IMG/VR virus record: IMGVR_UViG_3300021091_002721
Location: 1 to 34,140 of that record
Reading direction: 5' to 3' (one strand)
From: a virus
Taxonomy: Duplodnaviria > Caudoviricetes
DNA: 34,140 bases
Made by a program: the position numbers and the translations under genes. The notes below the pieces were generated by a model that had not been told where the DNA came from, made no database searches, and worked only from the letters and a program-made list of their open reading frames with translations. Below are positions 3,212 through 19,599 of this stretch, in pieces (position 1 is the first letter of the stretch; every line of letters starts with the position of its first letter).

Positions 3212-3785
3212 AGATAAATTAAAAATATCTGACATATTCTTTTTTTGTCCAGGCACATTAAAAAATATACCAGACAATGACTTTAATCTTAATGTATATT
3301 CTAACGTTCAGTCAAAAATAACTGAACTTGGCTATCAAATATCTGATGAGCCTAGTCAAGATAAGTATCATGCGGTGGGATTAGTCATTGAAGAGGACAA
3401 TACCAAAGTTCAATTTTTTGGAAAACTTTTTAGTTTTTCACCAAGAGGTGCTGTAGCAAATGTTGGAGACATGTTTGTTTTTATAGACTCTTTAGGTTGG
3501 TCAATTGAAAAAGGCAAAGCAACCCCATATTTTTTTAAAATTTCAGAAAAAACAATACTTGGTTCTGGATCTAAAACTTACAGGGCACAAATAATTTTTT
3601 CAGATAAATATTACATAGACGTACATGCAAATACAGAGGAAGAAGCAATAGAGACTGCTTATTCTATACCTATGAATTCTTGGACACACGAATGGCCACA
3701 TGATGATGAATTAAATAATTTTCAAGGAATTAGGCAAAGTGTTTGGGGTAAAAAAATGATAGGGGCTTCTGAACTTAATGAATAA
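3195..3785 (+). CDS. hypothetical protein
   Basis: 196 aa ORF coupled to neighbours. Confidence 0.65.
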   Translation: MKANLEDKLKISDIFFFCPGTLKNIPDNDFNLNVYSNVQSKITELGYQISDEPSQDKYHAVGLVIEEDNTKVQFFGKLFSFSPRGAVANVGDMFVFIDSLGWSIEKGKATPYFFKISEKTILGSGSKTYRAQIIFSDKYYIDVHANTEEEAIETAYSIPMNSWTHEWPHDDELNNFQGIRQSVWGKKMIGASELNE

Positions 3786-4062
3786 GATAAAATGGAAAGA
3801 CAATGGTTCTTGTGTTGATTATGATACTAATTTATTTTTTGATAAATATGAAGAGTCTGAAAACTTTAGACCAGCAATAGACAAATTATGCTCAGGGTGC
3901 CCAGTAGTAAAAACATGTTTTTCTGTTGGAGTTTCTCAAAAAGAATGGGGCGTTTGGGGTGGAGTATACTTAGAGGGTGGAGAAATTTCTAAAGAATTTA
4001 ATTCTCATAGATCTCAGGAAGATTGGGGTGAGGTTTGGATTGGACTCACAAATGAGAGGTAA
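3778..4062 (+). CDS. whiB: WhiB-family Fe-S transcription factor
   Basis: C..(LFF)..CxxCPVxxxC...WGVWGG: four Cys plus GVWGG turn. Confidence 0.9.
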   Translation: MNKIKWKDNGSCVDYDTNLFFDKYEESENFRPAIDKLCSGCPVVKTCFSVGVSQKEWGVWGGVYLEGGEISKEFNSHRSQEDWGEVWIGLTNER

Positions 4063-4067: not shown

Positions 4068-4994
4068 ATGTTTGTTTATGGAGATTATAATAATCCTGCA
4101 ACGTTACCTGGTAGATACAATGTTACTATACCACAAGAAGGTACTGTTTGGCCTGTATTAACAAGTGTTGAAGAGAAAGATGCACGAGGAAGATTTATAG
4201 ATAAGCCAGAAGTTCATTTAGTTATGTGGCAAAAAAATTTTTTACATGCTTTCTGCAATATGGTTCAGTATATTTTATATTATTTTAAGTTAAACAAAGA
4301 TGCACATTTTGTTTTACTGTTTGGATTAGATTTTCATGAAAATGATTTAGAAATAACTCATGGAAAATTTATTTTAGAAATGTTAGATAAAAAAAATATT
4401 AATTATGAAATTGTAAAATTAAAAGAAGAAGAGATTAATGTACAAAATGCAAATTATATGAAGGTAATACCTTTTTCTTCATACGTATTTTCAGAAGTAT
4501 ATGACTATTGTAGTTCTTTTATTGATAGAAATAACATACCAGAAAAGATAGTATATTTAGCAAGATCAAAAGTCCAGCCAAAAGCAATTGGACTTATTCT
4601 TAATGGTAGAGAAGAAGATACTGTTAAAATAAAAAGTGATTTAAGAATAGATGATGAGGAAGTTTTAATAGATTATTTTATAAAACGTGGTTTTGAAATT
4701 GTATATCCAGAAGATTTTAAAACTTTTGAAGAACAGGCTATATTTTTTAATAATGTTAAAACTATGATCTGTCCTTCTGGGTCTGGAATGGCAAACCTAA
4801 TGTTTATGCAACCAGGGCAAATGGTTATAGAATTACAAACGCCAGTACTTGTAGGAGGAAATCAACAAATACACCCATTTTATGTGGCTTTTTCTTGGGC
4901 AAAAAAACATACTTATATCGCTGTTCCTCATGAAAGAAAATCTGATACAATAATAGAATACTTTAAAAATAAAGGATTTTTAAATTATTTATGA
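4068..4994 (+). CDS. glycosyltransferase family 61 (DUF563)-like
   Basis: VYLAR...RIDDE...GFEIVYPE...FEEQ..FF....SGSGMANLMFM..G..VIEL. Confidence 0.8.
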   Translation: MFVYGDYNNPATLPGRYNVTIPQEGTVWPVLTSVEEKDARGRFIDKPEVHLVMWQKNFLHAFCNMVQYILYYFKLNKDAHFVLLFGLDFHENDLEITHGKFILEMLDKKNINYEIVKLKEEEINVQNANYMKVIPFSSYVFSEVYDYCSSFIDRNNIPEKIVYLARSKVQPKAIGLILNGREEDTVKIKSDLRIDDEEVLIDYFIKRGFEIVYPEDFKTFEEQAIFFNNVKTMICPSGSGMANLMFMQPGQMVIELQTPVLVGGNQQIHPFYVAFSWAKKHTYIAVPHERKSDTIIEYFKNKGFLNYL

Positions 4995-5956
4995 TAAGAC
5001 AGCACCCTGTAGAGCCTGTACACTACAAAAGCATCTGTGTAGTTGAAGACGATTTTAATGCTGGCAAGCCAATAATAACAGAAATATTAAAAGATGAATG
5101 GCATAGTGAAGAGTTTCGTATGAGAACAATAAAACATGCTGATACTTTTATGGATGAAAATGGATTAAGAAAAATAGTGATTAGATTTGAAACAGAATTT
5201 TTTCATAGTTTATTGAATACCATAGCACCAATATTATGGGAATACAAACAAGACCCTAACATGGAAGTAATATTATTACATACTAGCAAAGAAATTTCCG
5301 CATTTGAGTCATCTGGAACTTTTATTGTTCAAGTATTAAGAAATTATAATATTAAATTTTCTGTTACTCAAACTCATTCAAAATATCCACCAATAATGTC
5401 GAATTTTTATTATTATGACAAGATAGAAATGTGTGGTGATTACATTAATATACTAGAAGAACTTTTTAATACTTATAGGGACATGGCTTTACCTAATAAC
5501 AAAAAAGTATATGTAACTAGAAATGGTCATCAAAATATTTCTGCAACTCAATTACATCTAATGTCTGAAGAAGCAAAAAAGGAATTGCCGTTTTTAAATG
5601 ATTTAAGAATAGATGACGAAGTAAGTTTAGAAAATTTATTTAGAAGTTATGGATTTGAAATAGTTAACCCTAAAAACTTTAAAACTCTTGAAGATCAAAT
5701 AAGATTTTTTGATCAGGTAGAAGTTATTGCTGGACTATCTGGATCTGGTTTAACTAATTTATTATTTATGAGGGATAAAACAACAGTAATAGAACTAAGT
5801 ACAATACAGGTAGTTAAGCAAAAAATAGAATTTCACTATCATTTCTTTTTATTGGCAACATTGTGGGCTAACAAAAAATACATTTCTGTACCAAATATTT
5901 CAAGGGAATATGGTAAAATAGAATACGAACTTAAAAGAATGCTTGATACATTATGA
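4991..5956 (+). CDS. glycosyltransferase family 61 (DUF563)-like, paralog
   Basis: VYVTR...RIDDE...GFEIVNP...LEDQIRFF...SGSGLTNLLFM...VIEL. Confidence 0.8.
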   Translation: MIRQHPVEPVHYKSICVVEDDFNAGKPIITEILKDEWHSEEFRMRTIKHADTFMDENGLRKIVIRFETEFFHSLLNTIAPILWEYKQDPNMEVILLHTSKEISAFESSGTFIVQVLRNYNIKFSVTQTHSKYPPIMSNFYYYDKIEMCGDYINILEELFNTYRDMALPNNKKVYVTRNGHQNISATQLHLMSEEAKKELPFLNDLRIDDEVSLENLFRSYGFEIVNPKNFKTLEDQIRFFDQVEVIAGLSGSGLTNLLFMRDKTTVIELSTIQVVKQKIEFHYHFFLLATLWANKKYISVPNISREYGKIEYELKRMLDTL

Positions 5957-6681
5957 CCAACATATTAATTCCAATAGCGGGCCTCGGTAGTAGGTTTCCA
6001 GTAGAAACATATAAAACTACAAAGCCATTAATTAAGATAAATGGCAAAACGATGATAGAGCATGCTGTTGAATCATTATCTATAAAAGGAAACTATCATT
6101 TTGTCGTAAGAGATAGTGTATTTTTTGATGAAATATATTCTGTATTAAAAAATATAGATAGTTCTTGTAATATTATAAAAATAAATAAATTAACAAATGG
6201 CCCAGCAGAGACTTGTTTAATTGCTAAAGAATATATAGATAATGATGATGAGTTGGTAATTGCAAACTCGGATCAAATAATGTGGTGGGATTCTGATTTA
6301 TTTTTACAGGTGGCTCGTCATTCTAAGTATGATGGAGTGATAGTAACTTACACCTCAAATACAGACAAAAACAGTTATGCCCAAATTAATAAACAAGGAC
6401 TTGTAACTAAAATAAAAGAAAAAGAAGTAATAAGCGATATATCATTAAATGGAATACATTATTGGAAACATGGTAAAGATTTTGTTGATAGTGCAAATAA
6501 AATGATAAACAATAATGAAAGATATAACAATGAATTTTATGTTGGTCCTACATATAACTCAATGATTATGGACGGTAAAAAAATTGGAATATACCATATA
6601 CCGTCATATCAGCATAATGCTGTAGGGGTTCCATCAGATCTAGAACTATATTCGGAGAAATTATGGAAATTAGAAGAATAG
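5953..6681 (+). CDS. sugar-phosphate nucleotidyltransferase (GT-A fold, NDP-sugar pyrophosphorylase-like)
   Basis: IPIAGLGSRF...KPLIKINGKTMIE, GPAET, IANSDQ, NNEFYVGPTYN, VGVPSDL. Confidence 0.85.
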   Translation: MTNILIPIAGLGSRFPVETYKTTKPLIKINGKTMIEHAVESLSIKGNYHFVVRDSVFFDEIYSVLKNIDSSCNIIKINKLTNGPAETCLIAKEYIDNDDELVIANSDQIMWWDSDLFLQVARHSKYDGVIVTYTSNTDKNSYAQINKQGLVTKIKEKEVISDISLNGIHYWKHGKDFVDSANKMINNNERYNNEFYVGPTYNSMIMDGKKIGIYHIPSYQHNAVGVPSDLELYSEKLWKLEE

Positions 6682-6986
6682 AAGAATTTACTAGAGGTTG
6701 GATAATTGGAGACTTTAGTCCATCCATACTAAAGACAGACAAGTTTGAGGTTGGCTTGCTTCAGCATAAGGCTGGAGAGATTTGGCCAAAACATTATCAT
6801 AAAGTTGGCACAGAATATAATGTTTTGGTAAGTGGTAAGATGATAATACAGGGTAGAGAATTAAATGCTGGAGATGTATTTGTTTTTAATCCAGACGATA
6901 TTGCAGATCCTGTTTTTTTGCAGGATTGTACAGTATTGGTTGTAAAAGTACCTTCTTTACCAGGGGATAAGTATGAAGTTTTATAA
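6663..6986 (+). CDS. cupin-fold protein
   Basis: GWIIGDFSP...HYHKVGTEYNV: HxH...E cupin metal motif. Confidence 0.8.
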   Translation: MEIRRIEEFTRGWIIGDFSPSILKTDKFEVGLLQHKAGEIWPKHYHKVGTEYNVLVSGKMIIQGRELNAGDVFVFNPDDIADPVFLQDCTVLVVKVPSLPGDKYEVL

Positions 6987-8178
6987 AGAATTAAACGACC
7001 TAGAAAAAGATAGATGTGTTATTGTTACATACTATATAGAAGTTAATTCGTTATATGGCAGACTTAATGATGCAGCATGGTCACTAGCAATAGGACAAAG
7101 TGTAGGAAATCCAAAACAAAGAAATAGTTGGGAAACAGATGAGATGTTTGAAATGTCTTCTTGTGTCATATACAACGACGAAGAATATCTAAAATCACAA
7201 TTAAATGGTTTTGTAAAAATTGGATTTCCAAAAATAAATTCAGATTGGGACAATGATGGCGTGTCCCATTTATTATGTCAAATAATGGGCGGTCAATTGG
7301 ATATAGATGTATTTAAAGTATGTCGTGTTGTAGATATAGAATTCCCAGAGTCTGTAAAAAATAGTTTCTTGAAACCAAAATATGGAATGTCTGGCATAAG
7401 GAAATTTACTGGACAATATGACAAACCTTTGTTTGGGGGCATAGTAAAACCTAAAACTGGCCTTTCTGTAAAACAACTTGGATATTTAGTAAAAGAATTA
7501 ATAGATGGTGGCGTTGATTTTATTAAAGAAGATGAAATTTTATCTAATCCAATTTTTTGTAGATTAGAAGAGCGTGTTGAACATATTGCAAATATAATTT
7601 CAGATTCTGGAAGAAAGATAGTCTTTGCACATTGCATTAATTCTGATCCACATGCTATTTTAGACAGGGCAAAACTAGTATATAAAAACGGTGGAAACGG
7701 TGTACATGTAAATTTTTGGAGTGGATTGGGATCGTATAATTCTATACGTAAACTAGATCTTCCATTATTTATGCATTTTCAGAAAAGTGGAGATAAGATA
7801 TTGACTAACTCACAGCATAATTTTAAAATAGACTGGTACGTTATTTGTAAACTTGCTGCCTTGATGGGCGTAGATACAATACATGTTGGTATGTGGGGTG
7901 GATATCTCAGTGATGATGAAGAAAGATTAGGTAAATCTATGAGATTATTAAACGATAATAACGTTGTTCCTGCCTTAAGTTGTGGTATGCATCCTGGGCT
8001 TGTGGAGGCCATTACAAGGCGTTTTGGTAAGGAGTATATGGCAAACGTTGGTGGTGCCATTCACGGTCATCCTGAAGGCACTACGGGGGGTTCTAGGGCA
8101 ATGAGGCAGGCCATCGATAAGGATTATGGTCAGGAATACATTAAAGCAATTGAAAAGTGGGGACTTGTTAATGATTAA
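6973..8178 (+). CDS. RuBisCO-like protein (form IV RLP)
   Basis: GIVKPKTG, GGVDFIKEDE (KxDE), DTIHVG, LSCGMHPG, VGGAIHGHP; lacks the H294/K334/N123 equivalents. Confidence 0.9.
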   Translation: MKFYKELNDLEKDRCVIVTYYIEVNSLYGRLNDAAWSLAIGQSVGNPKQRNSWETDEMFEMSSCVIYNDEEYLKSQLNGFVKIGFPKINSDWDNDGVSHLLCQIMGGQLDIDVFKVCRVVDIEFPESVKNSFLKPKYGMSGIRKFTGQYDKPLFGGIVKPKTGLSVKQLGYLVKELIDGGVDFIKEDEILSNPIFCRLEERVEHIANIISDSGRKIVFAHCINSDPHAILDRAKLVYKNGGNGVHVNFWSGLGSYNSIRKLDLPLFMHFQKSGDKILTNSQHNFKIDWYVICKLAALMGVDTIHVGMWGGYLSDDEERLGKSMRLLNDNNVVPALSCGMHPGLVEAITRRFGKEYMANVGGAIHGHPEGTTGGSRAMRQAIDKDYGQEYIKAIEKWGLVND

Positions 8179-8608
8179 AATATCACATAGAGGTAACTTA
8201 ATTGGACCAAATCAAGAACTAGAAAATAATCCTGAATACATAAGGAAGGCTATCAATGCTGGATATGAGGTAGAGGTTGATTTTCGGGTGCTAGATGGCT
8301 TATTATATTTTGGTCATGACTATCCACAATATGAAGTTGATAAATTTTTTATAGACCTATATGTAAAAAAAATATGGCTTCATTGTAAAAATTTAGAAGC
8401 GCTAGATTATATAACTAACATGCCAAAATATTATAAAGGGTTTTGGCATGAAAATGATAAGTATACGCTGACAACTAACAATTATATTTGGACATATCCT
8501 AACATGCCAGTTACAAACAAAAGCATACTTGTGCATTTAGATAAGCCAACAAATGATATTCCAAATTATATTTTTGGAATTTGTAGTGATTATGTTAGTC
8601 TGATATAA
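8171..8608 (+). CDS. short PLC/GDPD-like phosphodiesterase-fold protein
   Basis: ISHRGN...EN...GYEVEVD...GHD...LHCKN...GICSDY; ATG 8171 overlaps end of RLP gene. Confidence 0.75.
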   Translation: MIKISHRGNLIGPNQELENNPEYIRKAINAGYEVEVDFRVLDGLLYFGHDYPQYEVDKFFIDLYVKKIWLHCKNLEALDYITNMPKYYKGFWHENDKYTLTTNNYIWTYPNMPVTNKSILVHLDKPTNDIPNYIFGICSDYVSLI

Positions 8609-9097: not shown

Positions 9098-9455
9098 TTT
9101 ATTAATTTTTGTAATTGTGGTAACAGTTGTTGCTGGTGCAGTAATAGAAAACATAAGACTAAAAAATAAAAACGTTGAACTAATGTTTTTATTGGCACAG
9201 TCAACTTTAGATATAAATGCCGTCAAAGATAAAATAAGTAATTTAAAAGATAATCCAGAAAAAGATCATTTTATTGCATTTTTAAATGATACAAGAAACA
9301 TGGCATATAAATATATCGAAGAGTTACAGGGTGAATTAATTACTTTTGCAAAAGTATTAGAAAAAGAACTTGAATCTCCAAATGATTTGTCAGTTCCGAG
9401 AATAGCAAAAGCCTTTGAGCAAGTAGAAAAAATGAGGCCACGTGAAGGCGAATAA
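9090..9455 (+). CDS. membrane-anchored coiled-coil hypothetical protein
   Basis: N-terminal TM LLIFVIVVTVVAGAVI; GGAGG upstream of ATG 9090. Confidence 0.65.
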   Translation: MIDLLIFVIVVTVVAGAVIENIRLKNKNVELMFLLAQSTLDINAVKDKISNLKDNPEKDHFIAFLNDTRNMAYKYIEELQGELITFAKVLEKELESPNDLSVPRIAKAFEQVEKMRPREGE

Positions 9456-10977
9456 AATAGTTATTGTTGGAGGTGGATCTGCTGGTTGGATGACGGCATC
9501 TGCTTTAATAAAAGCGTATCCAGAAAAAAATATAAGTGTAATTGAAAGCAAAGATATTTCAATAATTGGCGTTGGCGAAAGTACTACTTTTGAAATCAAT
9601 GGATTTTTTAATTTTCTAGGTATTGATTATTCTAGTATCATGAAATATACCAATGCTGCATACAAAGTTGCAATTGGATTTACTAATTTTAAAACAAAAG
9701 ACTCGCCTACTTTTTATTATCCTTTTGGACACCCCAATTTAGATAAAGATTTAACGTGTTTTGGATTAGATGATTGGTATTATAAAAAATCATTTTATCC
9801 AGATACAGAAGACCAAGATTATGTAAGGTATTTTTTTCCACAAGCAAAAAGCATGGAAACTAATAAAATAGTTATTGATAATATTGAAGAAATGAAGCCA
9901 TATCAACCACATAGGGATTTAGCATTACAAATGGATGCAACAAAACTAGGAAACTGGCTTGCAGAGTTTTATGCAATACCCCGTGGTGTAAAAAGAATTT
10001 ATGGCACGGTAAAGAAAATTAATCCGTCAAATAAAGGCATAGAGTCTTTAGTGTTAGACGATGACACAGAGATAGTTGCTGATTTGTTTGTAGATTGTTC
10101 TGGTTTTAATAGTATTTTGCTAGGCAAATTTATGAATGAAAGATTTGTATCGACTGCAGAATTTTTGCCCAACAACAGAGCCTGGACAGCCCATGTTCCA
10201 TATACAGATAAAGAAAAAGAACTGCAAACTTTTACAAATTGTACTGCCATTAATAATGGTTGGGTATGGAATATACCACTTTGGAATAGAATAGGGTCTG
10301 GATATGTATACTGTAATCAGTTTATTAGTGATGAAGACGCCCTTGAAGAATATAAAAATTATTTAGATTCTGAAAAAATGGTTGTGCATAATCCAGAAAG
10401 ATCAAAGTCATTAAGTTTTAAAAATATAAAAATTCATAACGGATATTATGAAAGGTTTTGGGTTGGAAACGTAGTGGCTGTTGGATTAGCAGCAGGATTT
10501 TTAGAACCTCTTGAAAGTACGGGCTTATTGCTTACACATCAAAACTGTTTTACTTTAATAGATGCTCTTGAGCGAGGACAGGTAACTCAATACGATATAG
10601 ATAATTTTAATTATAAAACTAAAACTAGAATAGAAAAAATGTTTGATTTTGTAGGCATTCATTATGCCTTATCACAAAGAGATGATACAGAATATTGGAA
10701 AAGTGTTACATCAAAATTTTATCCAAAAAATTATTTTAAATCAGATATTCAATGGGCAAACAATAATGTTGATACAATAAAGTCTGGTTTTGGTATAAGG
10801 CCTTTTTATAATACATACATAAGTTTATTAGAAAGTATGTCAGATAAAAATTACAACATTAAAAACAAGATAGAAATATATTTTCAGAAAAGGGCAAAAG
10901 CAAAACAAACTTGGGATAATATTGTAGACAACTCTAAAACACATTTTCAGATTTTAAAGGAAAAGTTTTATGAATAG
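9442..10977 (+). CDS. flavin-dependent (tryptophan) halogenase family protein
   Basis: GGGSAGW, IGVGEST, K in AAYKVAIGF, DLFVDCSG, GWVWNIPL, FLEPLESTG. Confidence 0.9.
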   Translation: MKANKIVIVGGGSAGWMTASALIKAYPEKNISVIESKDISIIGVGESTTFEINGFFNFLGIDYSSIMKYTNAAYKVAIGFTNFKTKDSPTFYYPFGHPNLDKDLTCFGLDDWYYKKSFYPDTEDQDYVRYFFPQAKSMETNKIVIDNIEEMKPYQPHRDLALQMDATKLGNWLAEFYAIPRGVKRIYGTVKKINPSNKGIESLVLDDDTEIVADLFVDCSGFNSILLGKFMNERFVSTAEFLPNNRAWTAHVPYTDKEKELQTFTNCTAINNGWVWNIPLWNRIGSGYVYCNQFISDEDALEEYKNYLDSEKMVVHNPERSKSLSFKNIKIHNGYYERFWVGNVVAVGLAAGFLEPLESTGLLLTHQNCFTLIDALERGQVTQYDIDNFNYKTKTRIEKMFDFVGIHYALSQRDDTEYWKSVTSKFYPKNYFKSDIQWANNNVDTIKSGFGIRPFYNTYISLLESMSDKNYNIKNKIEIYFQKRAKAKQTWDNIVDNSKTHFQILKEKFYE

Positions 10978-11176
10978 TGGTGTTGATCTAAGAGGAATTC
11001 CGTCTTCATGTTGTCCATTATGTGGTTCAACAGTAATAAAGGTTAAGGTTATTTTTGACCCAATAGACTATGAGGTAGGAATGTATTTTCTAGATGGAGA
11101 ATGTAGCGAATGTGGTGCTTTAATGACAGTTCCAACTCCATTAGATCATCCTAACAATATAAAAGGAGAAACGTGA
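10970..11176 (+). CDS. small zinc-binding hypothetical protein
   Basis: CPLCGS...CSECGA. Confidence 0.7.
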   Translation: MNSGVDLRGIPSSCCPLCGSTVIKVKVIFDPIDYEVGMYFLDGECSECGALMTVPTPLDHPNNIKGET

Positions 11177-11331
11177 AACAAATATTATTATCAACTATTA
11201 CAGGATTTGGATGTGGCGTTATATTTGCTGCATTTAAATTACCAGTTCCTGCTCCACCAGTTTTTGCAGGAGTGGCTGGTATAATTGGTTTATGGCTCGG
11301 TTACGACGCCATAGCAAAGTTCATATCCTAG
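11173..11331 (+). CDS. XapX/DUF1427-like small membrane protein (not in ORF track)
   Basis: GTG start after AGGAG; MKQILLSTITGFGCGVIFAAFKLPVPAPPVFAGVAGIIGLWLGY has the LPxPAPP..G..GI.G..LG signature. Confidence 0.75.
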   Translation: MKQILLSTITGFGCGVIFAAFKLPVPAPPVFAGVAGIIGLWLGYDAIAKFIS

Positions 11332-11342
11332 GAGGAAAATAA

Positions 11343-11600
11343 ATGGACGCAAAACTAAAAGCAATGTTAGCATCATACGGACGATCTGTTCTTGGTGCAG
11401 CACTTGCATTATACATGTCTGGAGTTACAGACCCTAAGACTCTTGCATACTCATTATTGGCTGCTATTGCACCAGTTGGGTTGAGAGCGCTTAATCCAAA
11501 CGATAAAGCATTTGGAAGATTACCTGCAATTTCTGCTATTGAAGCAGCGCTTGCAGATGTAAAGGTTAAGTCTCCTGCAAAGAAAGCAAAGAAGAAGTAA
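11343..11600 (+). CDS. putative holin-like membrane protein
   Basis: Two hydrophobic segments, basic C-tail, AGGAGG RBS. Confidence 0.5.
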   Translation: MDAKLKAMLASYGRSVLGAALALYMSGVTDPKTLAYSLLAAIAPVGLRALNPNDKAFGRLPAISAIEAALADVKVKSPAKKAKKK

Positions 11601-11612
11601 TGCTATAAGTAG

Positions 11613-11650
11613 GATGGGTTATTGTTTGTAATAGCCCATCTTTACTTTTT
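11613..11650 (+). terminator. rho-independent terminator between convergent genes
   Basis: GATGGGTTATTG-tttg-TAATAGCCCATC followed by TTTTACTTTT. Confidence 0.75.
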
Positions 11651-12503
11651 CATATAATTCATAATCTAAATTTTGATTTTCTTTAATTTTATTCATTATT
11701 GATTTAGGTATTTTATTAATAAAATTTTTATTTTCTCCAACATTTTGAAGTGGTTTTGTTGTTGGTACAGAAACGCCAAATTTTTCTGAAATAACTGAAT
11801 TTAGTTTTGATAAATCTTTTTCATTTTCTAAAATTTCAATATAATTAATGTTTTGTAATGCATCATCTATATTGTTGTACACTTTAACTAAGTTATGATA
11901 AAACAATGTCTGCGCTCTGTATTCATCCAATGTTATTTTATTTTCACATAATAGATTATAGTTAACTGTAATATCTTTTATATTTAATGTACAGGTAAGA
12001 TGTTTGTGTTGAATATTATTTTGTTTAAAATCGTTCATATGAAACTCTAAATCATCTATTGTTGGATTATCTTTTTTATATAAATAATTACTCAGAAATC
12101 TTTCTGTGGGTTCTCTTAATATTGTATATGTTAATAACTCTTGATTAAAAGTTTTAAATAACTCTATCGGGTACAGGGCAAAATGACCACTAATAAAATC
12201 ACATTTTATCATTTCATCATCATTAATATATTGTATAAAATTACTATACGCTCTGCGTTTATTAAATGCATGTAATAGGGGAACCTTTATAGACATTCCA
12301 GAAGTTTTGGGTATATGAAGAAAATAAAATGATTTTTTAGGAATGTATTCTTCATCATCTATATGACTAGTTTTATAGACTATTTGATTATTTTTTAAAA
12401 TAAATCCAGGGTGAACAAACCATGCTGGAAATGTATTTTCTAAACATTCTACTTTATCTTCTAAATTATATACAGTTTCGTTTATAATTTTTTTTAAAGT
12501 CAT
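11619..12503 (-). CDS. sulfotransferase-family protein
   Basis: FLHIPKTSG (5'-PSB), SGH, LREPTERFLSNY (3'-PB), NLDYELYE. Confidence 0.75.
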   Translation of the reverse strand: MTLKKIINETVYNLEDKVECLENTFPAWFVHPGFILKNNQIVYKTSHIDDEEYIPKKSFYFLHIPKTSGMSIKVPLLHAFNKRRAYSNFIQYINDDEMIKCDFISGHFALYPIELFKTFNQELLTYTILREPTERFLSNYLYKKDNPTIDDLEFHMNDFKQNNIQHKHLTCTLNIKDITVNYNLLCENKITLDEYRAQTLFYHNLVKVYNNIDDALQNINYIEILENEKDLSKLNSVISEKFGVSVPTTKPLQNVGENKNFINKIPKSIMNKIKENQNLDYELYEKVKMGYYKQ

Positions 12504-13240
12504 AAATTTTTATCTTGAAACTGATACTGTAGGTCTGTTGTATATGGAAATTCTATTCCTGCAAATCTTGTTTGTCTTTCTTTTTCTGATATCTCTGAGA
12601 AAAAAGATACAAAGGTGTACCTAATGCCAGATTTTATTGCATGAATTTGGTGCATATAACTATATGCTGAAGGAAATACAAAAAGTTGTCCAGCCTTTGG
12701 TTTTATTGTAACTCCAAAGTGCACAAACTCTAACTCCCCGCCCTCATAGTCATCGTTGGGATAATAAACCATGGACACGGTTCGTGGTGTTCCATATGAA
12801 TCATCTGCATGCATAGAGAACCATTCTCCTGGCTCATATCTTGATATTCTCATTGCTTCTCTACTTAATGGAGCAAGATCCCATTGCCATAAATAGGAGT
12901 CAATAACTTCTTGAAAGTTTTCAACAAACTTAGGATGATTCCAAATCCAACATGTTTCTGATCTTTTGCCATTTACTTCATCATAATAATCTTCACGAAT
13001 CCATTTTCTATTACCAGGGTGAGAAATTTCCCAAAATTTATCATCTTCTATTTCTTTGATAAAAGCCATCGAATCTGGCCAAATGTTGCCATAAATGTGC
13101 ATACCAGGAAATGGTGAGGAAAAATAAAATCTTTCTCCACTTCTGCTTTCTGTAAATCCCTCTTGCTGGTGTTTAAATTTAAGCGGATCCATTTCATTTC
13201 TCTTTTCTCTTTTTAGGCCATATTTGAAAAAGTATGACAC
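12500..13240 (-). CDS. 2OG-Fe(II) oxygenase (prolyl-hydroxylase-like)
   Basis: HADD...YYPNDDYEGGELEF...FPS...H...GIRY. Confidence 0.85.
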   Translation of the reverse strand: MSYFFKYGLKREKRNEMDPLKFKHQQEGFTESRSGERFYFSSPFPGMHIYGNIWPDSMAFIKEIEDDKFWEISHPGNRKWIREDYYDEVNGKRSETCWIWNHPKFVENFQEVIDSYLWQWDLAPLSREAMRISRYEPGEWFSMHADDSYGTPRTVSMVYYPNDDYEGGELEFVHFGVTIKPKAGQLFVFPSAYSYMHQIHAIKSGIRYTFVSFFSEISEKERQTRFAGIEFPYTTDLQYQFQDKNL

Positions 13241-13461
13241 CAGGTTCCGTCTGGCTTTAATGCTAAAGCATGTCTTGAAGTTACTTCTTCTGGCAGAGTA
13301 TAGTCAAATGCGTTTATAGAAATGGCACCCATCTCTTTTGCTTTTGCTGCTGCATCTTTTGGATATTCAAAACATTCAATACAAACATCATCTACTAAAA
13401 GTGGATACTTTCCGTCTTCACAACCATTAGAAGCGGCTCTCTCAATTCTAAAGGTAGGCAT
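13213..13461 (-). CDS. small hypothetical protein, paralog of 13461-13697
   Basis: TF...RAAS.GC....YPL..DD....CF..PKDAA shared. Confidence 0.7.
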   Translation of the reverse strand: MPTFRIERAASNGCEDGKYPLLVDDVCIECFEYPKDAAAKAKEMGAISINAFDYTLPEEVTSRHALALKPDGTWCHTFSNMA

Positions 13462-13697
13462 TACTTAAGAACCCATTTACCTTCTTCTTGAACTACAGTA
13501 AACAAGGCGTCTGATTCAAGATTGTCAACATCAAAAACAATTACTTCTGTTGCGCCATATTCATCTCTTGCATGATTTGCTGCATCTTTGGGCAAATAAA
13601 AACATCCCACTTGCTCGTCATCTTTAAATAACGGGTATTGTCTTTCACGGCAGCCCCCCGAAGCAGCACGTCCTACTTTAAAAGTACTCATATTCAC
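13461..13697 (-). CDS. small hypothetical protein, paralog of 13213-13461
   Basis: same shared motif; translationally coupled. Confidence 0.7.
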   Translation of the reverse strand: MNMSTFKVGRAASGGCRERQYPLFKDDEQVGCFYLPKDAANHARDEYGATEVIVFDVDNLESDALFTVVQEEGKWVLK

Positions 13698-14449
13698 ATT
13701 ATAGCATATTTTTTATCGCTGGATTTAACCTTTTCATAAAGATAATAGTCCGCATGATTTAATTCGTTTATTCTACCTATCCAAGAGTCTGGTATAGAAA
13801 AATCTAAAGGGTTGGGGATAGGGGTATTATGACCAGACCATTCGTAATCTGAAATTGCTTTTGTTATTTTATATTTCTTTAGAAAAATAGTGTTTAGAAA
13901 GTCTATTAGACGATCTCTACTCTCAACAGTTTCTACAATATAAGAGTCTAAGGCTTTATCTATTTCTGAAGGCTCAATGTTGTATTCTTTTAAACACCAA
14001 TCTGATCTCATCTTATCAATAGGCTCTGCAACCTTATTCCAAAGTTCTACGTCAACATAACCCAACAAAAATTTTGATTGTATGTTTGACGTTCCTCTAT
14101 AATAAGACTCATCGTATAAAAATTTTTCCATGAAGGACTGCGGTGTTCCGTATTCAGAACCAACAATTTTTGAATCTACTACCGTAAGACCTTGCCTGTA
14201 CATAAGCCAAAACCAACTAAGCCATTGTTCTTTTGGATTTCTAACTAATGAAAAAGAGATTATTCCGTCTACATATTTTTGTGGCAATTGCCCTATGTGT
14301 CCAGAAATATACTGTTTGTTTTTAAAATTATCTGTGTCTATTTTATCTGTGGGCTCTATAATATATTGAGCAAGTTCTTTTACTTGTTTAATGTAATGAT
14401 TTATAACTCCGCCAGACGTTCTTGGTATATGATTATGAAATATTGTCAT
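13694..14449 (-). CDS. sulfotransferase-family protein
   Basis: HNHIPRTSG, ISGH, VRNPKEQWLSW, ADYYLYE. Confidence 0.7.
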   Translation of the reverse strand: MTIFHNHIPRTSGGVINHYIKQVKELAQYIIEPTDKIDTDNFKNKQYISGHIGQLPQKYVDGIISFSLVRNPKEQWLSWFWLMYRQGLTVVDSKIVGSEYGTPQSFMEKFLYDESYYRGTSNIQSKFLLGYVDVELWNKVAEPIDKMRSDWCLKEYNIEPSEIDKALDSYIVETVESRDRLIDFLNTIFLKKYKITKAISDYEWSGHNTPIPNPLDFSIPDSWIGRINELNHADYYLYEKVKSSDKKYAIM

Positions 14450-14480
14450 TAAATAATTATATCATATGATACAATAAATT

Positions 14481-15047
14481 ATGCACAAAATATTAGGTCC
14501 AGGAATTGTATTATTTTATAATGTTTTTGATCAAGAGTACGTTGATTTTATAGAAACAAACTTTGCTGAACTTTTTCAATTAAAAATTAATAATCAAAAT
14601 GGGAGTTTAGTCAGAAAATCTTATTCGATACAAATGAGTGATTTCAAAAAAAATAATGAATATGTAAATGTTTTATATCAAGATTTTCAAAATAAACTAC
14701 AGGACTGTATTAATTTATACAAGTCAATATACGATGTTCAGAACATGGTTTTTGAATATGATGATGAAAACAATTCAATAGTTACTTTATTAAAATATGA
14801 AATAGACAATTCTGTTATATTTCATAGCGACACTTTAGGAATGGATAACAGGGTTGGCGCTGCACTTGCGTATTTAAATGACAATTATGAGGGCGGAGAA
14901 TTAGAATTTAAACATTTTGATATTAAAATAACTCCTCCAAAAAATAGTTTAATAATTTTTCCATCTAATTGGCCTTATGTCCATAGGTCAAGTCCAATAC
15001 TTAATGGTAAAAAATATGCATTAAGATGTTTTTTGGTTAGTAAATAA
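14481..15047 (+). CDS. 2OG-Fe(II) oxygenase
   Basis: HSD...YLNDNYEGGELEF...FPS..PYVH...GKKY. Confidence 0.85.
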   Translation: MHKILGPGIVLFYNVFDQEYVDFIETNFAELFQLKINNQNGSLVRKSYSIQMSDFKKNNEYVNVLYQDFQNKLQDCINLYKSIYDVQNMVFEYDDENNSIVTLLKYEIDNSVIFHSDTLGMDNRVGAALAYLNDNYEGGELEFKHFDIKITPPKNSLIIFPSNWPYVHRSSPILNGKKYALRCFLVSK

Positions 15048-15121
15048 AATTTGGAGGATCTTTTAGTTGTTTTTTTAATTTTCTCATATAATTCCATTTT
15101 TTAAATTTTCTATATATTGTT

Positions 15122-16012
15122 TTAAAAAACATTCCATTTCTCCTTTGCTGCTTTTAAAAAGCAATCAGCATAATACATGTTTATTAAAGTGCCAGCGTGA
15201 CCGTCTCTCTTCCTTAGATCATGCTCTGTTTTTTGCCAACCAGACTGGTATTGAGTTGCAATATAGTCTACCTGACTATCTATATCCATACTAACATACG
15301 AACTATCTAACATATTTAAAGTTTTTAAATTTTCTAAATCATTATAATACCAAGTAGACCATAAAATTTTGATATTGTTTAAGTTGCAATAATCTATAAA
15401 AAATCTCCAGCCAATAACAAAATTCATCAATGACTCAAAATATTCGCTGTTAGAAAGTATATTTGCGTCTTCTTTTTGAGACGGTCCACCAGGCAATTTT
15501 GGATATCTCTGCATATAGCAATAATCATTTGCGTTCATAGTGTTAAACTCAAACCTTCTAGATATATTGGGCAGTAAAATAAAAACATAGTCTGGCTTAC
15601 TATATTCACGTATATATATTCTTATATTGTCCATTATCATTTGCCATCCCCAGCCCGATTTAGACAAACTATACAAAGTTTTGTCTTCAATATTAGAATT
15701 TTGTAAAAAAATTGTTGGCCAAACTGTATCTAGGTTTCCACCTATCCCTTCGGTTTGAGAACATCCAGCAAACAAAACATGTGGTCTTAAAGGATTTTTT
15801 GTAAATTCATTAGATCTAAAAAAGTTTGAGTTGTATTTATATAAAACAGTTTTGTCGTCTATTACACCGATTTTCATTTCAGACTTAGTTATGGTTTCTT
15901 CTAAGACATCCGTTCCTTTATGCCAAGACAAATCAAACTTATCTGATATTGTTTCAGAAAGACCCCCCGTTACAATATTTTTTTTTAAAAGATATTCTTT
16001 GTCTATGCTCAC
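15122..16012 (-). CDS. SGNH/GDSL-like hypothetical protein
   Basis: FAGCSQTEG block I-like and DGHAG C-terminal motif; similar to 22119 and 23036. Confidence 0.55.
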   Translation of the reverse strand: MSIDKEYLLKKNIVTGGLSETISDKFDLSWHKGTDVLEETITKSEMKIGVIDDKTVLYKYNSNFFRSNEFTKNPLRPHVLFAGCSQTEGIGGNLDTVWPTIFLQNSNIEDKTLYSLSKSGWGWQMIMDNIRIYIREYSKPDYVFILLPNISRRFEFNTMNANDYCYMQRYPKLPGGPSQKEDANILSNSEYFESLMNFVIGWRFFIDYCNLNNIKILWSTWYYNDLENLKTLNMLDSSYVSMDIDSQVDYIATQYQSGWQKTEHDLRKRDGHAGTLINMYYADCFLKAAKEKWNVF

Positions 16013-16767
16013 CAGTTTCTCCTAAGATATATATCATAAAAATTTAATTTATGAAGAGCAATTGCGTCAACAGACCAGTTTTTATTATAATATAAAAACT
16101 CATTTACTGTTTGATATGTGCCATACTGAACCCCATCAATTATTCCGTCATAAATTAAATAATCATTTAGTCCTATTATTCCATCTACTGGTATTAATTT
16201 AGAGGCGTCATTTAAAACTTTTCTTGTTGCTGCTCTTCCATTATGTATGTCTATATAAATATAATCATATTCTTTACCGATAAAATTCGGAAGAATGTCT
16301 TCTGCATCACCCTTATATGTGGTCACGTTTCCATATTTACTAAATTTATTTTTAATAAAATCTTCTGATTCTTCGGCAGAAAAATCGTATGTATGCTTTA
16401 TTGGTTTACATTGACATTCACCAAACCTTCTCCAAGACCAACATTTCATATCTTGATCAAACCTGCAAACCAAATCAATAACTGACGGGCTGGCACTTTT
16501 GCAAACTATTTCAGAATAATATCCCCATGCCACACCAACTTCCATATATCTAATATTCTTTTTAAGGTTTTTGGCATACTCTTCTCTAGATTTATATATT
16601 TTGGCACTGTTTAATTGTTCTTGATTCAATTCTCTGGGATCTTCAATCTCATCTTTATTTAATTGTCGTATCTCATCTCGGCCAAAAGACTCTACTATCT
16701 TTTTGGATTTTCCGCTACTCTGTTCGACTTGTGCAATTATTTGTTTTTGCTCTTCTGTTAATGGCAT
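16009..16767 (-). CDS. class I SAM-dependent methyltransferase (Methyltransf_24-like)
   Basis: MEVGVAWGYYS, YDYIYIDIHN, GIIGLNDY. Confidence 0.75.
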   Translation of the reverse strand: MPLTEEQKQIIAQVEQSSGKSKKIVESFGRDEIRQLNKDEIEDPRELNQEQLNSAKIYKSREEYAKNLKKNIRYMEVGVAWGYYSEIVCKSASPSVIDLVCRFDQDMKCWSWRRFGECQCKPIKHTYDFSAEESEDFIKNKFSKYGNVTTYKGDAEDILPNFIGKEYDYIYIDIHNGRAATRKVLNDASKLIPVDGIIGLNDYLIYDGIIDGVQYGTYQTVNEFLYYNKNWSVDAIALHKLNFYDIYLRRNW

Positions 16768-16802
16768 AATAATGATTATACACTATGATATAATAAAGTA
16801 TT

Positions 16803-17465
16803 ATGAAATCTCCCAAAAAAGGACCTGCATATGAGCAATATATGCAACTTAAAAAATCACAAGAGTCAATTTCTAATCAAGATTTTGAACCTATAATTGT
16901 TAATAATATTTTTTCTACAGAAGACATAGAGCATTTGTATGAGATAGTTAACAATACTCCAGAAGAAAAAACACAAATTCAAAAATGGGGTGGGATGAAG
17001 GCTTGGCATATAGACTTAGGTCCAAGAATTAAAGAAAAAATTAATGAGGCAGTAAAAAGATCTTTGGGGGATTACGTTAGATTAGTAGAAGATCATTCTT
17101 TTTGCAGATATAGTATGGAATATGGTTGGATGACTAAACTGTTTCCACACACAGACATGAGAGACTCGCAAAGAATAACTTTTGACATACAAGTTAAAGC
17201 AGACGAAGAATGGGGAGTTGTAGTAGAAGATGTAGAATATTTTTTAGAAGATAATCAAGCATTAGTTTTTGCTGGCACACAACAGCCTCATTGGAGAAGA
17301 GCAAAAGAATTAAAACCAGGAAGTCATCAAGATATGATATTTTGTCATTTAGAGTATGTAAACGATACACCATACGATGAGCATCAAGATCAAATACTTA
17401 ATGAAAGAAATAGATTTTTTTCTGAGTATTATGATATGCATCCAGATCCTAGCACTTTTTATTAA
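16803..17465 (+). CDS. 2OG-Fe(II) oxygenase-like protein
   Basis: LFPHTD...ALVFAG...HWR. Confidence 0.65.
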   Translation: MKSPKKGPAYEQYMQLKKSQESISNQDFEPIIVNNIFSTEDIEHLYEIVNNTPEEKTQIQKWGGMKAWHIDLGPRIKEKINEAVKRSLGDYVRLVEDHSFCRYSMEYGWMTKLFPHTDMRDSQRITFDIQVKADEEWGVVVEDVEYFLEDNQALVFAGTQQPHWRRAKELKPGSHQDMIFCHLEYVNDTPYDEHQDQILNERNRFFSEYYDMHPDPSTFY

Positions 17466-17466
17466 A

Positions 17467-17646
17467 ATGAAAAATTTAGAAGAATCAATTAAAAATATAT
17501 TATTTAATATAGGAAAAGAAATTAAAGTTCATAAATTAATAGACGGAAACTTTATATTAGAAATAGATTACGACAAATACTGTAATGAAATTATTAAAGT
17601 TTTTAATGAATGTTTAGAAGAAAGTGACTCAAAAGATGTTCGGTAA
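17467..17646 (+). CDS. small hypothetical protein
   Basis: ATG 17467 just after upstream stop; MKNLEESIKNILF... Confidence 0.6.
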   Translation: MKNLEESIKNILFNIGKEIKVHKLIDGNFILEIDYDKYCNEIIKVFNECLEESDSKDVR

Positions 17647-18400
17647 ACTACATTTAATAGGATCTCCAATAGGCAATATGGTCGATGTCTCTAAAAGACT
17701 TACTGATGCATTGCTTGATGCAAAGTATATATGTGTTGAAGATATAGAAAGATTTAAAGAATATTGTAGTTTTAATAATTTTTCTTACACTGCCGAATTA
17801 ATAGATATATGTTTTTCTTTAAATAACAATAGAGAAAAAGACAGCAAAGACAGAGTTATATCTTTGCTTAAAAGCGGTCAAGATGTTTATATTGTTTCAG
17901 ATGAAGGGATGCCAGGGTTGGCAGATCCTGGAGAAGTTTTAGTAAAAGAAGCAATAATAAATAATATAGAAATTATAACAACTCCAGGCCCGTCAGTTGC
18001 TCTTGCTGCAGCATCTATTTCAAATACATTAAACAATTTTATATTTGAAGGGTTTATGTCAAATTTGGATGAAGACAGACACAGTAAGTTTAAGTTTCTA
18101 CAAATGTCTTCTATACCCATGATTTTTCTTTTACATAATCCAAACAATAGACCCATAGACAAAGACGATAAAATTCATATGATACACAATTGTTTTGATT
18201 ATGATGTATTTGTTGAAGAGTGTATTTATTTTTTTGGAGAAGAAAGAAATGCTGTTTTTTGTATAGATCTAACTACAGAAAAACAAAAAATAATTAGAGG
18301 AAAATTAAAAGATATTAAAAAATATTTTACAGATAATAAAATTTTAGGAAACATTTGCTTGGTTGTTGACGGCAAAACAAATCAAAAAATAACTATTTAG
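17636..18400 (+). CDS. rsmI: RsmI-like tetrapyrrole-methylase-fold methyltransferase, copy 1
   Basis: GKLHLIGSPIGNMVD, VSDEGMPGLADPG, PGPSVALAA, FIFEGF. Confidence 0.75.
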   Translation: MFGKLHLIGSPIGNMVDVSKRLTDALLDAKYICVEDIERFKEYCSFNNFSYTAELIDICFSLNNNREKDSKDRVISLLKSGQDVYIVSDEGMPGLADPGEVLVKEAIINNIEIITTPGPSVALAAASISNTLNNFIFEGFMSNLDEDRHSKFKFLQMSSIPMIFLLHNPNNRPIDKDDKIHMIHNCFDYDVFVEECIYFFGEERNAVFCIDLTTEKQKIIRGKLKDIKKYFTDNKILGNICLVVDGKTNQKITI

Positions 18401-18513
18401 TTTTTTTATTGTACTCTCCGTATTTACCTAGGATTGCCTTTATTCTTCCATCTTTTCTTAATCTTACAATCATTCCGTCTTTGATCTGAATTGGATTAAA
18501 TTTATGATTTGGT

Positions 18514-19104
18514 TTATATTGTCCAGAAGACATTTCCGCTACCACGTTTTCTTGTACTTTGTTTTTGTATAGGATTAAATATGTCTGAAAATATTTTTTT
18601 ATCTTTTTCAGAATTTACAATTCTCCTTGACCAAGAATAGCCAGCATCCCCACCCCATGCCAACCACATAATATACCCATTAGACGGATTAGATTGATTT
18701 CCCCAATCCTTCCCCTTTTTATCTACTTCGTGACGAGAAAAATAAGAATACATTCTTTTAACTGTGCTTAGTGAAAGTGATTCGCCTCTTGCTAATTGTC
18801 CTGCACGAGTCCATCCTACTGATGTACCTGCACCTTTTGCTTTACCTTGTTCTTTAAGTCTAATTGCTTTTTTTGCTGCTGCTCTCGCACCTGCTGGTGG
18901 AGAATAGCCGTCTGCTTTTTCTACAAAATCTGTTTCGTATGTAACTGTGTCATCATCTTCCCAAAGATCATCTGCTTTTTTTGCAGGAATACAATTAGGA
19001 ACTGGCTTACCATTTTTTCCAGGCTTCATTCCTCTTTGAACATATCCTTCCCAGCAAGGAGCCTTCTTTTCTACTTCATCTGGGCAGCATTCATGATATG
19101 GCAT
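18514..19104 (-). CDS. phage protein, possibly virion/head-associated
   Basis: CWEGY...GKPVPNC motif and RMYSYFSRH...WLAWGGDAG motif that I recognise from phage proteins. Confidence 0.55.
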   Translation of the reverse strand: MPYHECCPDEVEKKAPCWEGYVQRGMKPGKNGKPVPNCIPAKKADDLWEDDDTVTYETDFVEKADGYSPPAGARAAAKKAIRLKEQGKAKGAGTSVGWTRAGQLARGESLSLSTVKRMYSYFSRHEVDKKGKDWGNQSNPSNGYIMWLAWGGDAGYSWSRRIVNSEKDKKIFSDIFNPIQKQSTRKRGSGNVFWTI

Positions 19105-19594: not shown

Positions 19595-19599
19595 TTTTC

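What the first reader, a model, noticed from the sequence alone, without database searches (positions are those of the whole stretch)
4068..8608. Phage-encoded RuBisCO-like protein in a coupled sugar-nucleotide/glycosylation cassette
Seen: six genes with overlapping start/stop regions, GT61 - GT61 - nucleotidyltransferase - cupin - RLP - phosphodiesterase-fold, inserted between whiB and small phage genes. Established: characterised form IV RLPs act in methionine salvage (MtnW enolase, MTRu-1P isomerase) or in catabolism of acid sugars (oxo-tetronate phosphate and oxo-isoapionate phosphate decarboxylation/transcarboxylation); none of those partner genes is here. Inference: this RLP works biosynthetically, isomerising or rearranging a phosphosugar that is then NDP-activated, adjusted by the cupin and transferred by GT61s to virion, DNA or host surface. 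That would be an uncharacterised RLP pathway carried by a virus.
Basis: partly seen in the sequence, partly recalled or inferred. Interest (0 to 1): 0.9.

Follow-up and report, generated by a model that had tools for sequence, protein, structure and literature searches.

The report
Phage RuBisCO relative replacing a phosphatase
A lake phage carries an intact RuBisCO relative that lacks key CO2-fixing residues and fills the same slot of a sugar-activation gene module that a phosphatase fills in related phages and microbes, so it likely reshapes a sugar phosphate for building a surface glycan, an untested job for this enzyme family.

Summary
The six genes are real, overlap, and lie on a tailed-phage fragment. 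The RuBisCO-like protein (RLP) keeps the Mg/carbamate site, lacks carboxylation residues, and forms its own clade, probably Jaffe's published phage 'IV-like' group. It is not virus-specific: SAR11, DPANN archaea, Legionellaceae and Azospirillum carry it. The conserved partner is the nucleotidyltransferase (76 of 80 viral, 38 of 41 cellular loci; gene fusions exist), then a miniature GDPD-fold phosphodiesterase. GT61 is lineage-specific (5 of 80). Main result: RLP and HAD phosphatases look like alternatives. Of 67 phosphodiesterase-anchored loci with the transferase, 62 have a HAD only, 3 the RLP only, none both; sibling phages carry a HAD in this slot. Best reading (inferred): the RLP moves the carbonyl of a ketose phosphate, probably a pentulose-5-P to a pentulose-1-P, which is NDP-activated, cyclised by the phosphodiesterase and transferred to a surface glycan. 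Substrate untested; known xylulose O-antigen clusters lack such genes. This scan noted the cassette before on other DNA (8 notes); my one look-up found no note on the HAD/RLP interchange.

The parts
3778..4062 (+). whiB-like regulator, left flank (suggests an actinobacterial host; inferred)
   Evidence: PF02467 43.5 bits; phrog_472
4068..4994 (+). GT61 glycosyltransferase 1 (308 aa); likely the lineage-specific transferase
   Evidence: PF04577 E 9e-16; in 5 of 80 RLP loci; alternates with c4/WavE in phosphodiesterase loci
4991..5956 (+). GT61 glycosyltransferase 2 (321 aa), 29% identical to the first
   Evidence: PF04577 E 4e-14
5953..6681 (+). Sugar-phosphate nucleotidyltransferase (242 aa), 4EVW-like family; core partner of the RLP
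   Evidence: PF00483 over cut-off; PDB 4evw E 2e-15; 76/80 and 38/41 loci; fusions
6663..6986 (+). Small cupin (107 aa), H44/H46/E51 conserved; predicted epimerase or isomerase
   Evidence: phrog_24762; in 67/80 RLP loci but 4/80 HAD-fusion loci
6973..8178 (+). RuBisCO-like protein (401 aa): K175, K177, K201, D203, E204, S379, G381 kept; E60G, T65N, N123G, H294Q, R295K, H298D, K334Y, G380C (form I numbering)
8171..8608 (+). Miniature GDPD-fold phosphodiesterase (145 aa), H6-R7, N19, E35, D37, H49, K73 invariant; predicted cyclase

Best explanation
The cassette is a nucleotidyltransferase-phosphodiesterase module in which a RuBisCO-like protein sits where relatives carry a HAD phosphatase, and the RLP likely works as a Mg-dependent ketose-phosphate isomerase that supplies the transferase's substrate for a surface-glycan sugar. 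Shown: intact genes, active-site pattern, own clade, linkage and fusion to the transferase, near mutual exclusion with HADs, GDPD fold of the last gene. Inferred step by step: (1) the RLP shifts the carbonyl of an abundant pentulose-5-phosphate two carbons, giving a pentulose-1-phosphate, the 1,3-isomerisation known for DeepYkr RLPs but on a substrate with a free hydroxyl; the HAD versions would reach a ketose-1-phosphate by removing one phosphate from a bisphosphate. (2) The transferase makes an NDP-1-ketose. (3) The cupin may epimerise it. (4) The mini-GDPD lets the neighbouring C2 hydroxyl displace NMP, giving a ketose 1,2-cyclic phosphate, which puts phosphate on the anomeric carbon. (5) A GT61 transfers the ketofuranose, directly or after re-activation, to a virion or host-surface glycan. 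My odds: RLP feeds the transferase in glycan building 0.85; does so as an isomerase 0.5; this exact pentulose and cyclic-phosphate route 0.25-0.3.
For: Linkage: transferase in 76 of 80 viral RLP loci (3 of the 4 misses are contig ends) and 38 of 41 cellular loci; RLP-NTase, RLP-NTase-cupin and PDE-RLP fusion proteins. Interchange: of 80 phosphodiesterase-anchored loci, 67 have the transferase: 62 HAD only, 3 RLP only, 0 both, 2 neither; RLP loci with the transferase lack a HAD in 71 of 76 viral and 36 of 38 cellular cases; 1 of 80 HAD-fusion loci has an RLP, and it is the query's own locus. Sibling phages keep whiB and the phosphodiesterase (73% and 69% identical) but carry NTase::small-HAD + cupin (L271) or HAD::NTase (L273) in the slot. 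RLP-linked transferases are scattered over the transferase tree, two nested among HAD-fused ones. In Legionellaceae, LicD lies beside HAD::NTase in 8 of 16 fetched RLP-free loci and beside RLP + NTase in the 4 RLP loci, with no phosphodiesterase. Other partners point to pentose phosphates: an RpiB fusion with a PfkB kinase and a HAD, a PRK-family kinase with a HAD, a RibB fusion. Active site in 102 sequences: Mg/carbamate and first-phosphate residues kept, second site polar (K/D/H/S), invariant new Cys and Tyr. Precedents: RLP 1,3-isomerase (PMC5893883, passages); GDPD cyclic-phosphate intermediate (PMC10404611, passages).
Against: No activity data. Both RLP and a HAD occur in 5 of 76 viral loci, and in L074 the RLP follows a HAD-fused transferase; L289 has neither. 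HAD detection used five profiles built from these loci, so other HAD classes could be missed. Counts are not independent (kin), and half the dereplicated sample was RLP-anchored (79 clusters: 37 HAD only, 36 RLP only, 7 both, 2 neither, mixed clusters counted under each state). Interchangeable modules may make different sugars. The four Legionellaceae RLP loci are one clade, LicD is divergently transcribed there, 8 of 16 other LicD loci have no such neighbour, and I did not check whether the RLP genomes hold a HAD::NTase elsewhere. Known xylulose O-antigen clusters have no recognised donor-synthesis genes (PMC11380512 section 11; PMC7685785 passages). In the one GDPD paper read, hydrolysis of the cyclic phosphate gives LPA, not a migrated 2-phosphate. 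K295 and H327 could still hold a second phosphate. This phage has one transferase while the route may need two activations.
Confidence: 0.5

Rival explanations
1. The RLP acts on a bisphosphate and removes one phosphate by elimination or cleaves the chain, giving a deoxy-diketo sugar phosphate or a small acid phosphate (glycerate or glycolate type) that the transferase activates.
For: Standing in for a phosphatase is most simply phosphate loss. R295K and H327 keep a polar second site. One cyanophage fuses the same transferase family to RibB, an eliminating and rearranging enzyme. Loop-6 and N123 mutants of RuBisCO favour elimination (recalled).
Against: H298D puts a carboxylate in the second site in 92 of 102 sequences. 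RuBP is not expected in actinobacteria, SAR11 or Legionella (recalled). No reductase is conserved in the cassette.
Confidence: 0.2
2. The RLP makes a branched sugar (hamamelose- or apiose-like) by carboxylation, transcarboxylation or a 1,2-carbon shift, and that sugar phosphate is activated.
For: Acid-sugar RLPs are the nearest reference clade in the quick tree (support 91) and do C-C chemistry. The Mg/carbamate site is intact.
Against: H294 and K334, kept in all six acid-sugar references, are Q and Y in 102 of 102 family members. No four-carbon acid kinase or dehydrogenase is among the recurring neighbours. It does not explain the interchange with HADs.
Confidence: 0.12
3. The RLP is a simple epimerase or one-step keto-shifter acting on a hexose phosphate (for example towards fructose-, psicose- or tagatose-1-phosphate), with the cupin doing part of the shift.
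For: A related transferase lies beside an EcbF-BcbF phosphatase in E. coli O78 (27% identity, E 9e-14), and BcbE/BcbG are needed for capsule fructose (PMC13552107, passages). FBP is a plausible HAD substrate in most hosts (recalled).
Against: Fru6P to Fru1P needs a three-step carbonyl walk with no RLP precedent known to me. Several RLP loci, including SAR11 and the 4 Legionellaceae loci, lack the cupin.
Confidence: 0.12
4. The RLP serves methionine salvage or carbon fixation as an auxiliary metabolic gene, or is a passenger in a variable island.
For: An AdoMet decarboxylase lies elsewhere in the window. RLP plus cupin is the DeepYkr gene pair. Best PDB and fold hits are form III RuBisCOs.
Against: Scores are far below the MtnW, OiaX and form III cut-offs; separate clade; no mtnA/B/K/X among recurring neighbours; second site polar rather than the Pro/hydrophobic pocket of MtnW and MtnKA-linked RLPs; E60, N123, H294 and K334 lost; fusions to the transferase.
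Confidence: 0.05

Closest known systems
'Form IV-like' RuBisCO-related proteins of phages and Beckwithbacteria (Jaffe et al., bioRxiv 10.1101/386292; Mol Biol Evol PMC6389311)
   Same: Divergent RLP clade, about 90 sequences on phage contigs, function left open (passages). Two IMG dataset numbers in their supplement (3300000116, 3300005805) also appear among my loci L036 and L044.
   Different: The main text has no hit for glycosyl, nucleotidyl, adjacent, neighbor or Pelagibacter. Their Fig. S1 shows genomic context of two genomes and could not be seen. Their sequences were cut from the stored supplement, so identity with this clade is not shown by sequence.
DeepYkr RLP, 5-methylthioribulose-1-P 1,3-isomerase (R. 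rubrum, R. palustris Rlp1) with its cupin
   Same: Non-carboxylating RLP that moves a carbonyl two carbons, turning a 1-phosphate into a 5-phosphate; encoded beside a cupin (PMC5893883). This is what I propose it works like.
   Different: Different clade (stand-ins L133, L134 beside mtnK/mtnA). They have K-D-D-H, H294 and P295; this family has K-E-D-E, Q294 and K295. No MTA genes nearby; opposite, biosynthetic direction proposed.
BcbE/BcbF/BcbG fructose-branch genes of P. multocida capsule B (and C. jejuni HS1.08)
   Same: Capsule-locus genes required to add a ketofuranose; donor chemistry not given in the passages read. A relative of this transferase lies beside a TIGR01689 EcbF-BcbF phosphatase.
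   Different: BcbE and BcbG themselves were not available to compare; the label 'BcbE-like' is recalled. In the O78-type module an APH-like kinase and BcbF are present and no RLP is.
HAD::nucleotidyltransferase + mini-GDPD modules of cultured cyanophages (S-CAM9, B23, Bellamy)
   Same: Same transferase and phosphodiesterase families, cupin in Bellamy.
   Different: HAD or RpiB in place of the RLP; no RLP match in 50,697 cultured phage records. No characterisation of these modules turned up in my searches.

Membership tests
RuBisCO superfamily | N-terminal domain plus catalytic barrel with K201-x-D203-E204 Mg site | tested here: met
   PF00016 137.7 bits; model TM 0.87 to form III and 0.84 to MtnW; K, D, E invariant in 102 of 102
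Bona fide RuBisCO (forms I-III) | E60, T65, N123, H294, R295, K334 conserved | tested here: not met
   G, N, G, Q, K, Y in this protein; TIGR03326 195.8 vs cut-off 497
Bona fide RuBisCO (forms I-III) | RuBP carboxylase activity | not testable with these tools
   needs assay
MtnW / IV-YkrW enolase | Family score, clade and mtn gene context | tested here: not met
   TIGR03332 137 vs 513.6; separate from L130 in the tree; no mtn genes among recurring neighbours
DeepYkr MTRu-1P 1,3-isomerase | Clade, P295 hydrophobic pocket, mtnA/mtnK context | tested here: not met
   Tested against two mtnK/mtnA-linked stand-ins, not R. rubrum itself
OiaX / acid-sugar RLPs | H294, R295, K334 and an adjacent four-carbon acid sugar kinase | tested here: not met
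   kinase not among recurring neighbours
Form IV-like (Jaffe 2019) | Phage-rich clade apart from all described RLP groups | tested here: met
   48 members form one branch, SH-aLRT 100, against 19 references in a quick tree lacking form II, IV-AMC and GOS groups; 243 viral stretches
Form IV-like (Jaffe 2019) | Groups with the published IV-like sequences | tested here: inconclusive
   Sequences cut from the stored supplement; 2 of 8 dataset numbers tried match
GDPD phosphodiesterases (ORF 8171-8608) | Barrel fold with H-R, E-x-D and second His | tested here: met
   invariant H6 R7 E35 D37 H49; Z 10.9, rmsd 3.2 over 139 residues to 1o1z; only 145 aa, no Pfam GDPD hit
GDPD phosphodiesterases (ORF 8171-8608) | Cleaves a phosphodiester through a cyclic phosphate | not testable with these tools
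   precedent only
BcbE/BcbG-type capsule proteins (ORF 5953-6681) | Homology to P. multocida BcbE or BcbG | tested here: inconclusive
   no BcbE/BcbG sequence on hand; indirect link through the O78 protein beside an EcbF-BcbF phosphatase
GT61 | PF04577 over cut-off | tested here: met
   both genes

The most novel reading that the evidence does not exclude
A whole RLP clade, spread by phages and present in SAR11, DPANN archaea and other bacteria, is the first biosynthetic branch of the RuBisCO superfamily, and it marks an unrecognised general route to activated keto-sugars: ketose-1-phosphate (made by an RLP, a HAD, or a kinase plus HAD), NDP-1-ketose, then a 1,2-cyclic phosphate formed by a 145-residue GDPD, which moves phosphate to the anomeric carbon for ketofuranose transfer.
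Probability: 0.27. Interest if true: 0.85.

Novelty: new variant of a known kind. Interest (0 to 1): 0.62.

Why it matters
The RLP functions I know of are salvage or catabolic (recalled), and the phage 'IV-like' clade was published without a function. The interchange with HAD phosphatases gives a short substrate list and a control enzyme, so the clade's function can be assayed with four small phage proteins. If the cyclic-phosphate route holds, it would also explain how some microbes activate keto-sugars for surface glycans; an E. coli O-antigen review lists no synthesis genes for the xylulose donor in its clusters. The modules are common in aquatic phages: 243 RLP stretches, about 780 HAD-fusion and about 2,500 phosphodiesterase stretches estimated in IMG/VR. 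These hits should also not be counted as viral carbon-fixation genes.

Tried and rejected
RLP in cultured phages: no match in 50,697 records. RLP 5 kb from a transferase on a Rhizobium plasmid: coincidence, it is an mtnK/mtnA-linked RLP on the other strand. LicD as an RLP-specific partner: rejected, LicD in 32 of 121 Legionellaceae genomes, RLP in 1 with a single-protein query. Enolase beside one LicD locus: it is the genome's only enolase. My guess that sibling phages carry an RpiB fusion was wrong; it is a small HAD. Kinase and phosphodiesterase as alternatives: not clean, 15 of 25 kinase loci also hold the phosphodiesterase. c4 as a WavE homologue: no profile match. E. coli searches for a cluster of known structure: nothing; one search gave only O78-type hits. 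Terminase by PF03237: 0 of 5 records; found with a relative's protein instead. Foldseek on the phosphodiesterase model: best E 0.017. Careful RLP tree did not finish; the quick tree is reported. Expression: no RNA holder listed. Motif search of Jaffe's supplement gave 0 because the sequences are cut. Literature: 10 searches; none of the listed papers ties an RLP to a nucleotidyltransferase (one search listed 20 of 52, none with the term RuBisCO-like); most subscription journals are not in the library. No complex prediction was sent, as no binding is claimed.


Full report
Observation. The six ORFs are present with overlaps of 4, 4, 19, 14 and 8 nt. Both GT61s, the nucleotidyltransferase (NTase) and the RuBisCO domain pass Pfam cut-offs; the cupin is weak; the last ORF has no Pfam hit. 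Its 56-sequence family keeps the GDPD catalytic pattern, hits a GDPD by profile, and its model aligns to GDPD barrels at Z 10.9 over 139 of 145 residues, so 'phosphodiesterase-fold' holds, in a shortened form. The record is a virus fragment, 31% complete, with phage-type genes, held by 23 of 24 listed runs, all lake-water metagenomes, 18 of them marked as possible sources. The cassette is identical in a longer contig and syntenic in L002, L003, L004 and L047; three of five records searched, all relatives, encode a terminase. dN/dS against two relatives is 0.03-0.15 over the four core genes.

The RLP. It scores below every curated cut-off (form III 196 vs 497, MtnW 137 vs 514, OiaX 148 vs 700). 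In 102 distinct family sequences K175, K177, K201, D203, E204, S379 and G381 are invariant, as are the substitutions E60G, T65N, N123G, D202E, H294Q, K334Y and G380C; R295 is K in 93 and H298 is D in 92 (numbering from a form I reference). Carboxylation is therefore unlikely, and the second pocket is polar, unlike the Pro-lined pocket of MtnW and of two mtnK/mtnA-linked RLPs. A quick tree of 48 members and 19 references puts the family on one long branch (SH-aLRT 100); form II, IV-AMC and GOS groups were not included and the careful search did not finish. The protein search returned 2,780 relatives, other RuBisCO forms possibly among them; 243 viral stretches and 41 genome loci encode it. The latter include a complete Pelagibacter chromosome, Legionella and Azospirillum isolates and many DPANN bins; a few short bin contigs carry phage genes and may be viral. 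No cultured phage record has it.

Prior description. Jaffe et al. reported about 90 phage 'IV-like' RLPs of unclear function (bioRxiv passages; journal passages; supplement headers). Two of eight dataset numbers I tried occur in both sets, but the sequences were cut from the stored file, so membership is likely, not shown. Their Fig. S1 on genomic context could not be seen and may show some of these neighbours. Yooseph 2007 noted unplaced marine RuBisCO groups (passages).

Neighbourhood. Among the best 80 viral loci (two are copies of this phage) the NTase is in 76, the phosphodiesterase in 69, the cupin in 67 and GT61 in 5. In 41 genome loci the counts are 38, 20 and 10. Recurrent neighbours are glycosyltransferases, epimerases, methyltransferases and WavE. 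Fusions exist: RLP-NTase (P0122), RLP-NTase-cupin (P0271, P0272), phosphodiesterase-RLP (P0156, partial).

The interchange. The same NTase family occurs without the RLP, fused to a beta-PGM-like HAD (S-CAM9, B23), RpiB (Bellamy) or RibB (S-SKS1). Anchoring on the phosphodiesterase gave 80 loci, 67 with the NTase: 62 with a HAD only, 3 with the RLP only, none with both, 2 with neither. RLP loci with the NTase lack a HAD in 71 of 76 viral and 36 of 38 cellular cases. One of 80 HAD-fusion loci has an RLP, the query's own; these loci share the phosphodiesterase (71) and the unknown family c4 (48) but rarely the cupin (4). After clustering, the pattern stays (37 HAD only, 36 RLP only, 7 both, 2 neither), though the sample is not neutral and the HAD profiles were built from these loci. 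Sibling phages show the swap directly: L271 keeps whiB (73%), a GT61 and the phosphodiesterase (69%) but has NTase::small-HAD and cupin; L273 has HAD::NTase. RLP-linked NTases do not form one branch; two nest among HAD-fused ones (FastTree, 72 rows), and L069 and its kin lack the cupin. In Legionellaceae, LicD occurs in 32 of 121 genomes and the RLP in 1; of 16 RLP-free LicD loci fetched (of 28 other full-length hits), 8 have HAD::NTase beside LicD, while the four RLP loci have RLP + NTase there; LicD is 56-71% identical across the two types, and no phosphodiesterase is present. Those four are one clade. GT61 and c4/WavE exclude each other in phosphodiesterase loci (22, 31, both 0, neither 27), so GT61 is a plausible transferase in this lineage.

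Mechanism (inferred). What can a phosphatase, a kinase plus phosphatase, and an RLP all deliver? A ketose-1-phosphate: the HAD from a bisphosphate; RpiB, PfkB and HAD, or a PRK-family kinase and HAD, from pentose-5-phosphates; and the RLP by the 1,3 carbonyl shift shown for DeepYkr RLPs (PMC5893883, passages). Cytidylylation of a ketose at its primary phosphate has precedent in a different enzyme (PMC10918830, passages). GDPDs work through a cyclic phosphate formed by the adjacent hydroxyl (PMC10404611, passages); on an NDP-1-ketose that hydroxyl is the anomeric one. LicD, which transfers phospho-alcohols from CDP donors (recalled), would use the NDP-1-ketose directly, matching the missing phosphodiesterase. 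Many DPANN and SAR11 loci carry two NTases, as two activations would need. Against this: mixed and empty loci exist (L074, L289); xylulose O-antigen clusters show no such genes (PMC11380512 section 11; PMC7685785 passages); the GDPD precedent does not migrate phosphate; the kinase/phosphodiesterase alternative was not clean; and a bisphosphate substrate is not excluded. The link to fructose capsule genes is indirect: BcbE and BcbG are needed for fructose (PMC13552107, passages), HS1.08 likewise (PMC7901785 and PMC11924219, passages), and a 27%-identical NTase lies beside an EcbF-BcbF phosphatase in E. coli O78. PMC8707391 (passages) only confirms xylulose as a rare glycan sugar. The acceptor is unknown; cellular context favours a surface glycan over DNA.

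Verdict. Real and under selection; a probably published but unassigned RLP clade in a glycan-donor module, with no paper on the module in my ten searches. This scan noted the cassette on other DNA in eight earlier notes, which is not independent support; a look-up for the HAD/LicD interchange found none. New variant of a known kind; interest 0.62.

Noticed in passing
L026, L027, L033, L035, L040-L042, L045 (downstream of the RLP): NTase-cupin-RLP is followed by an APH-like kinase, a dehydroquinate-synthase-like sugar-phosphate cyclase and (where the contig reaches) a short-chain-reductase-like gene: a possible cyclitol pathway in phages.
   Followed up: no
L122:5998-7425 (S-SKS1) and L124:6992-8149 (Bellamy): Cultured cyanophages carry NTase::RibB and NTase::RpiB fusions of this family, annotated only as DHBP synthase and phosphatase.
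   Followed up: partly
L173-L188 (Legionellaceae): LicD followed by a HAD::NTase fusion in 8 of 16 loci, an apparently uncharacterised two-gene surface-decoration unit.
   Followed up: partly
L427:2242-8172 (E. coli APEC O78 O-antigen cluster): WavE, an EcbF-BcbF phosphatase, a 540-aa kinase-bearing protein and a 244-aa NTase suggest an acid-labile keto-sugar branch; I did not check the published O78 structure.
   Followed up: no
L289:1804-4484; L398 and L418: whiB-GT61-NTase-cupin-phosphodiesterase with neither HAD nor RLP (L289); a HAD-IIB gene, phosphomannomutase-like by eye, in the same slot in L398 and L418.
   Followed up: partly
window 9442-21794: Dense tailoring-enzyme region: tryptophan halogenase, three 2OG-Fe(II) oxygenases, two sulfotransferase-like genes, a methyltransferase, two RsmI-like methyltransferases, Hsp20 and AdoMet decarboxylase.
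   Followed up: no
window 28536-28612 (-): tRNA-Asp(GTC), next to DUF932 and GP88-family genes.
   Followed up: no
cluster c4, e.g. L031:3991-4740: A ~245-aa family without Pfam cut-off hit, near this module in 41 of 80 RLP and 48 of 80 HAD loci and alternating with GT61: a candidate new glycosyltransferase family.
   Followed up: partly
P0196, P0175, P0273: RuBisCO-superfamily fusions: a TIR domain on an RLP (P0196), and family RLPs joined to unidentified 320-330-residue domains.
   Followed up: no
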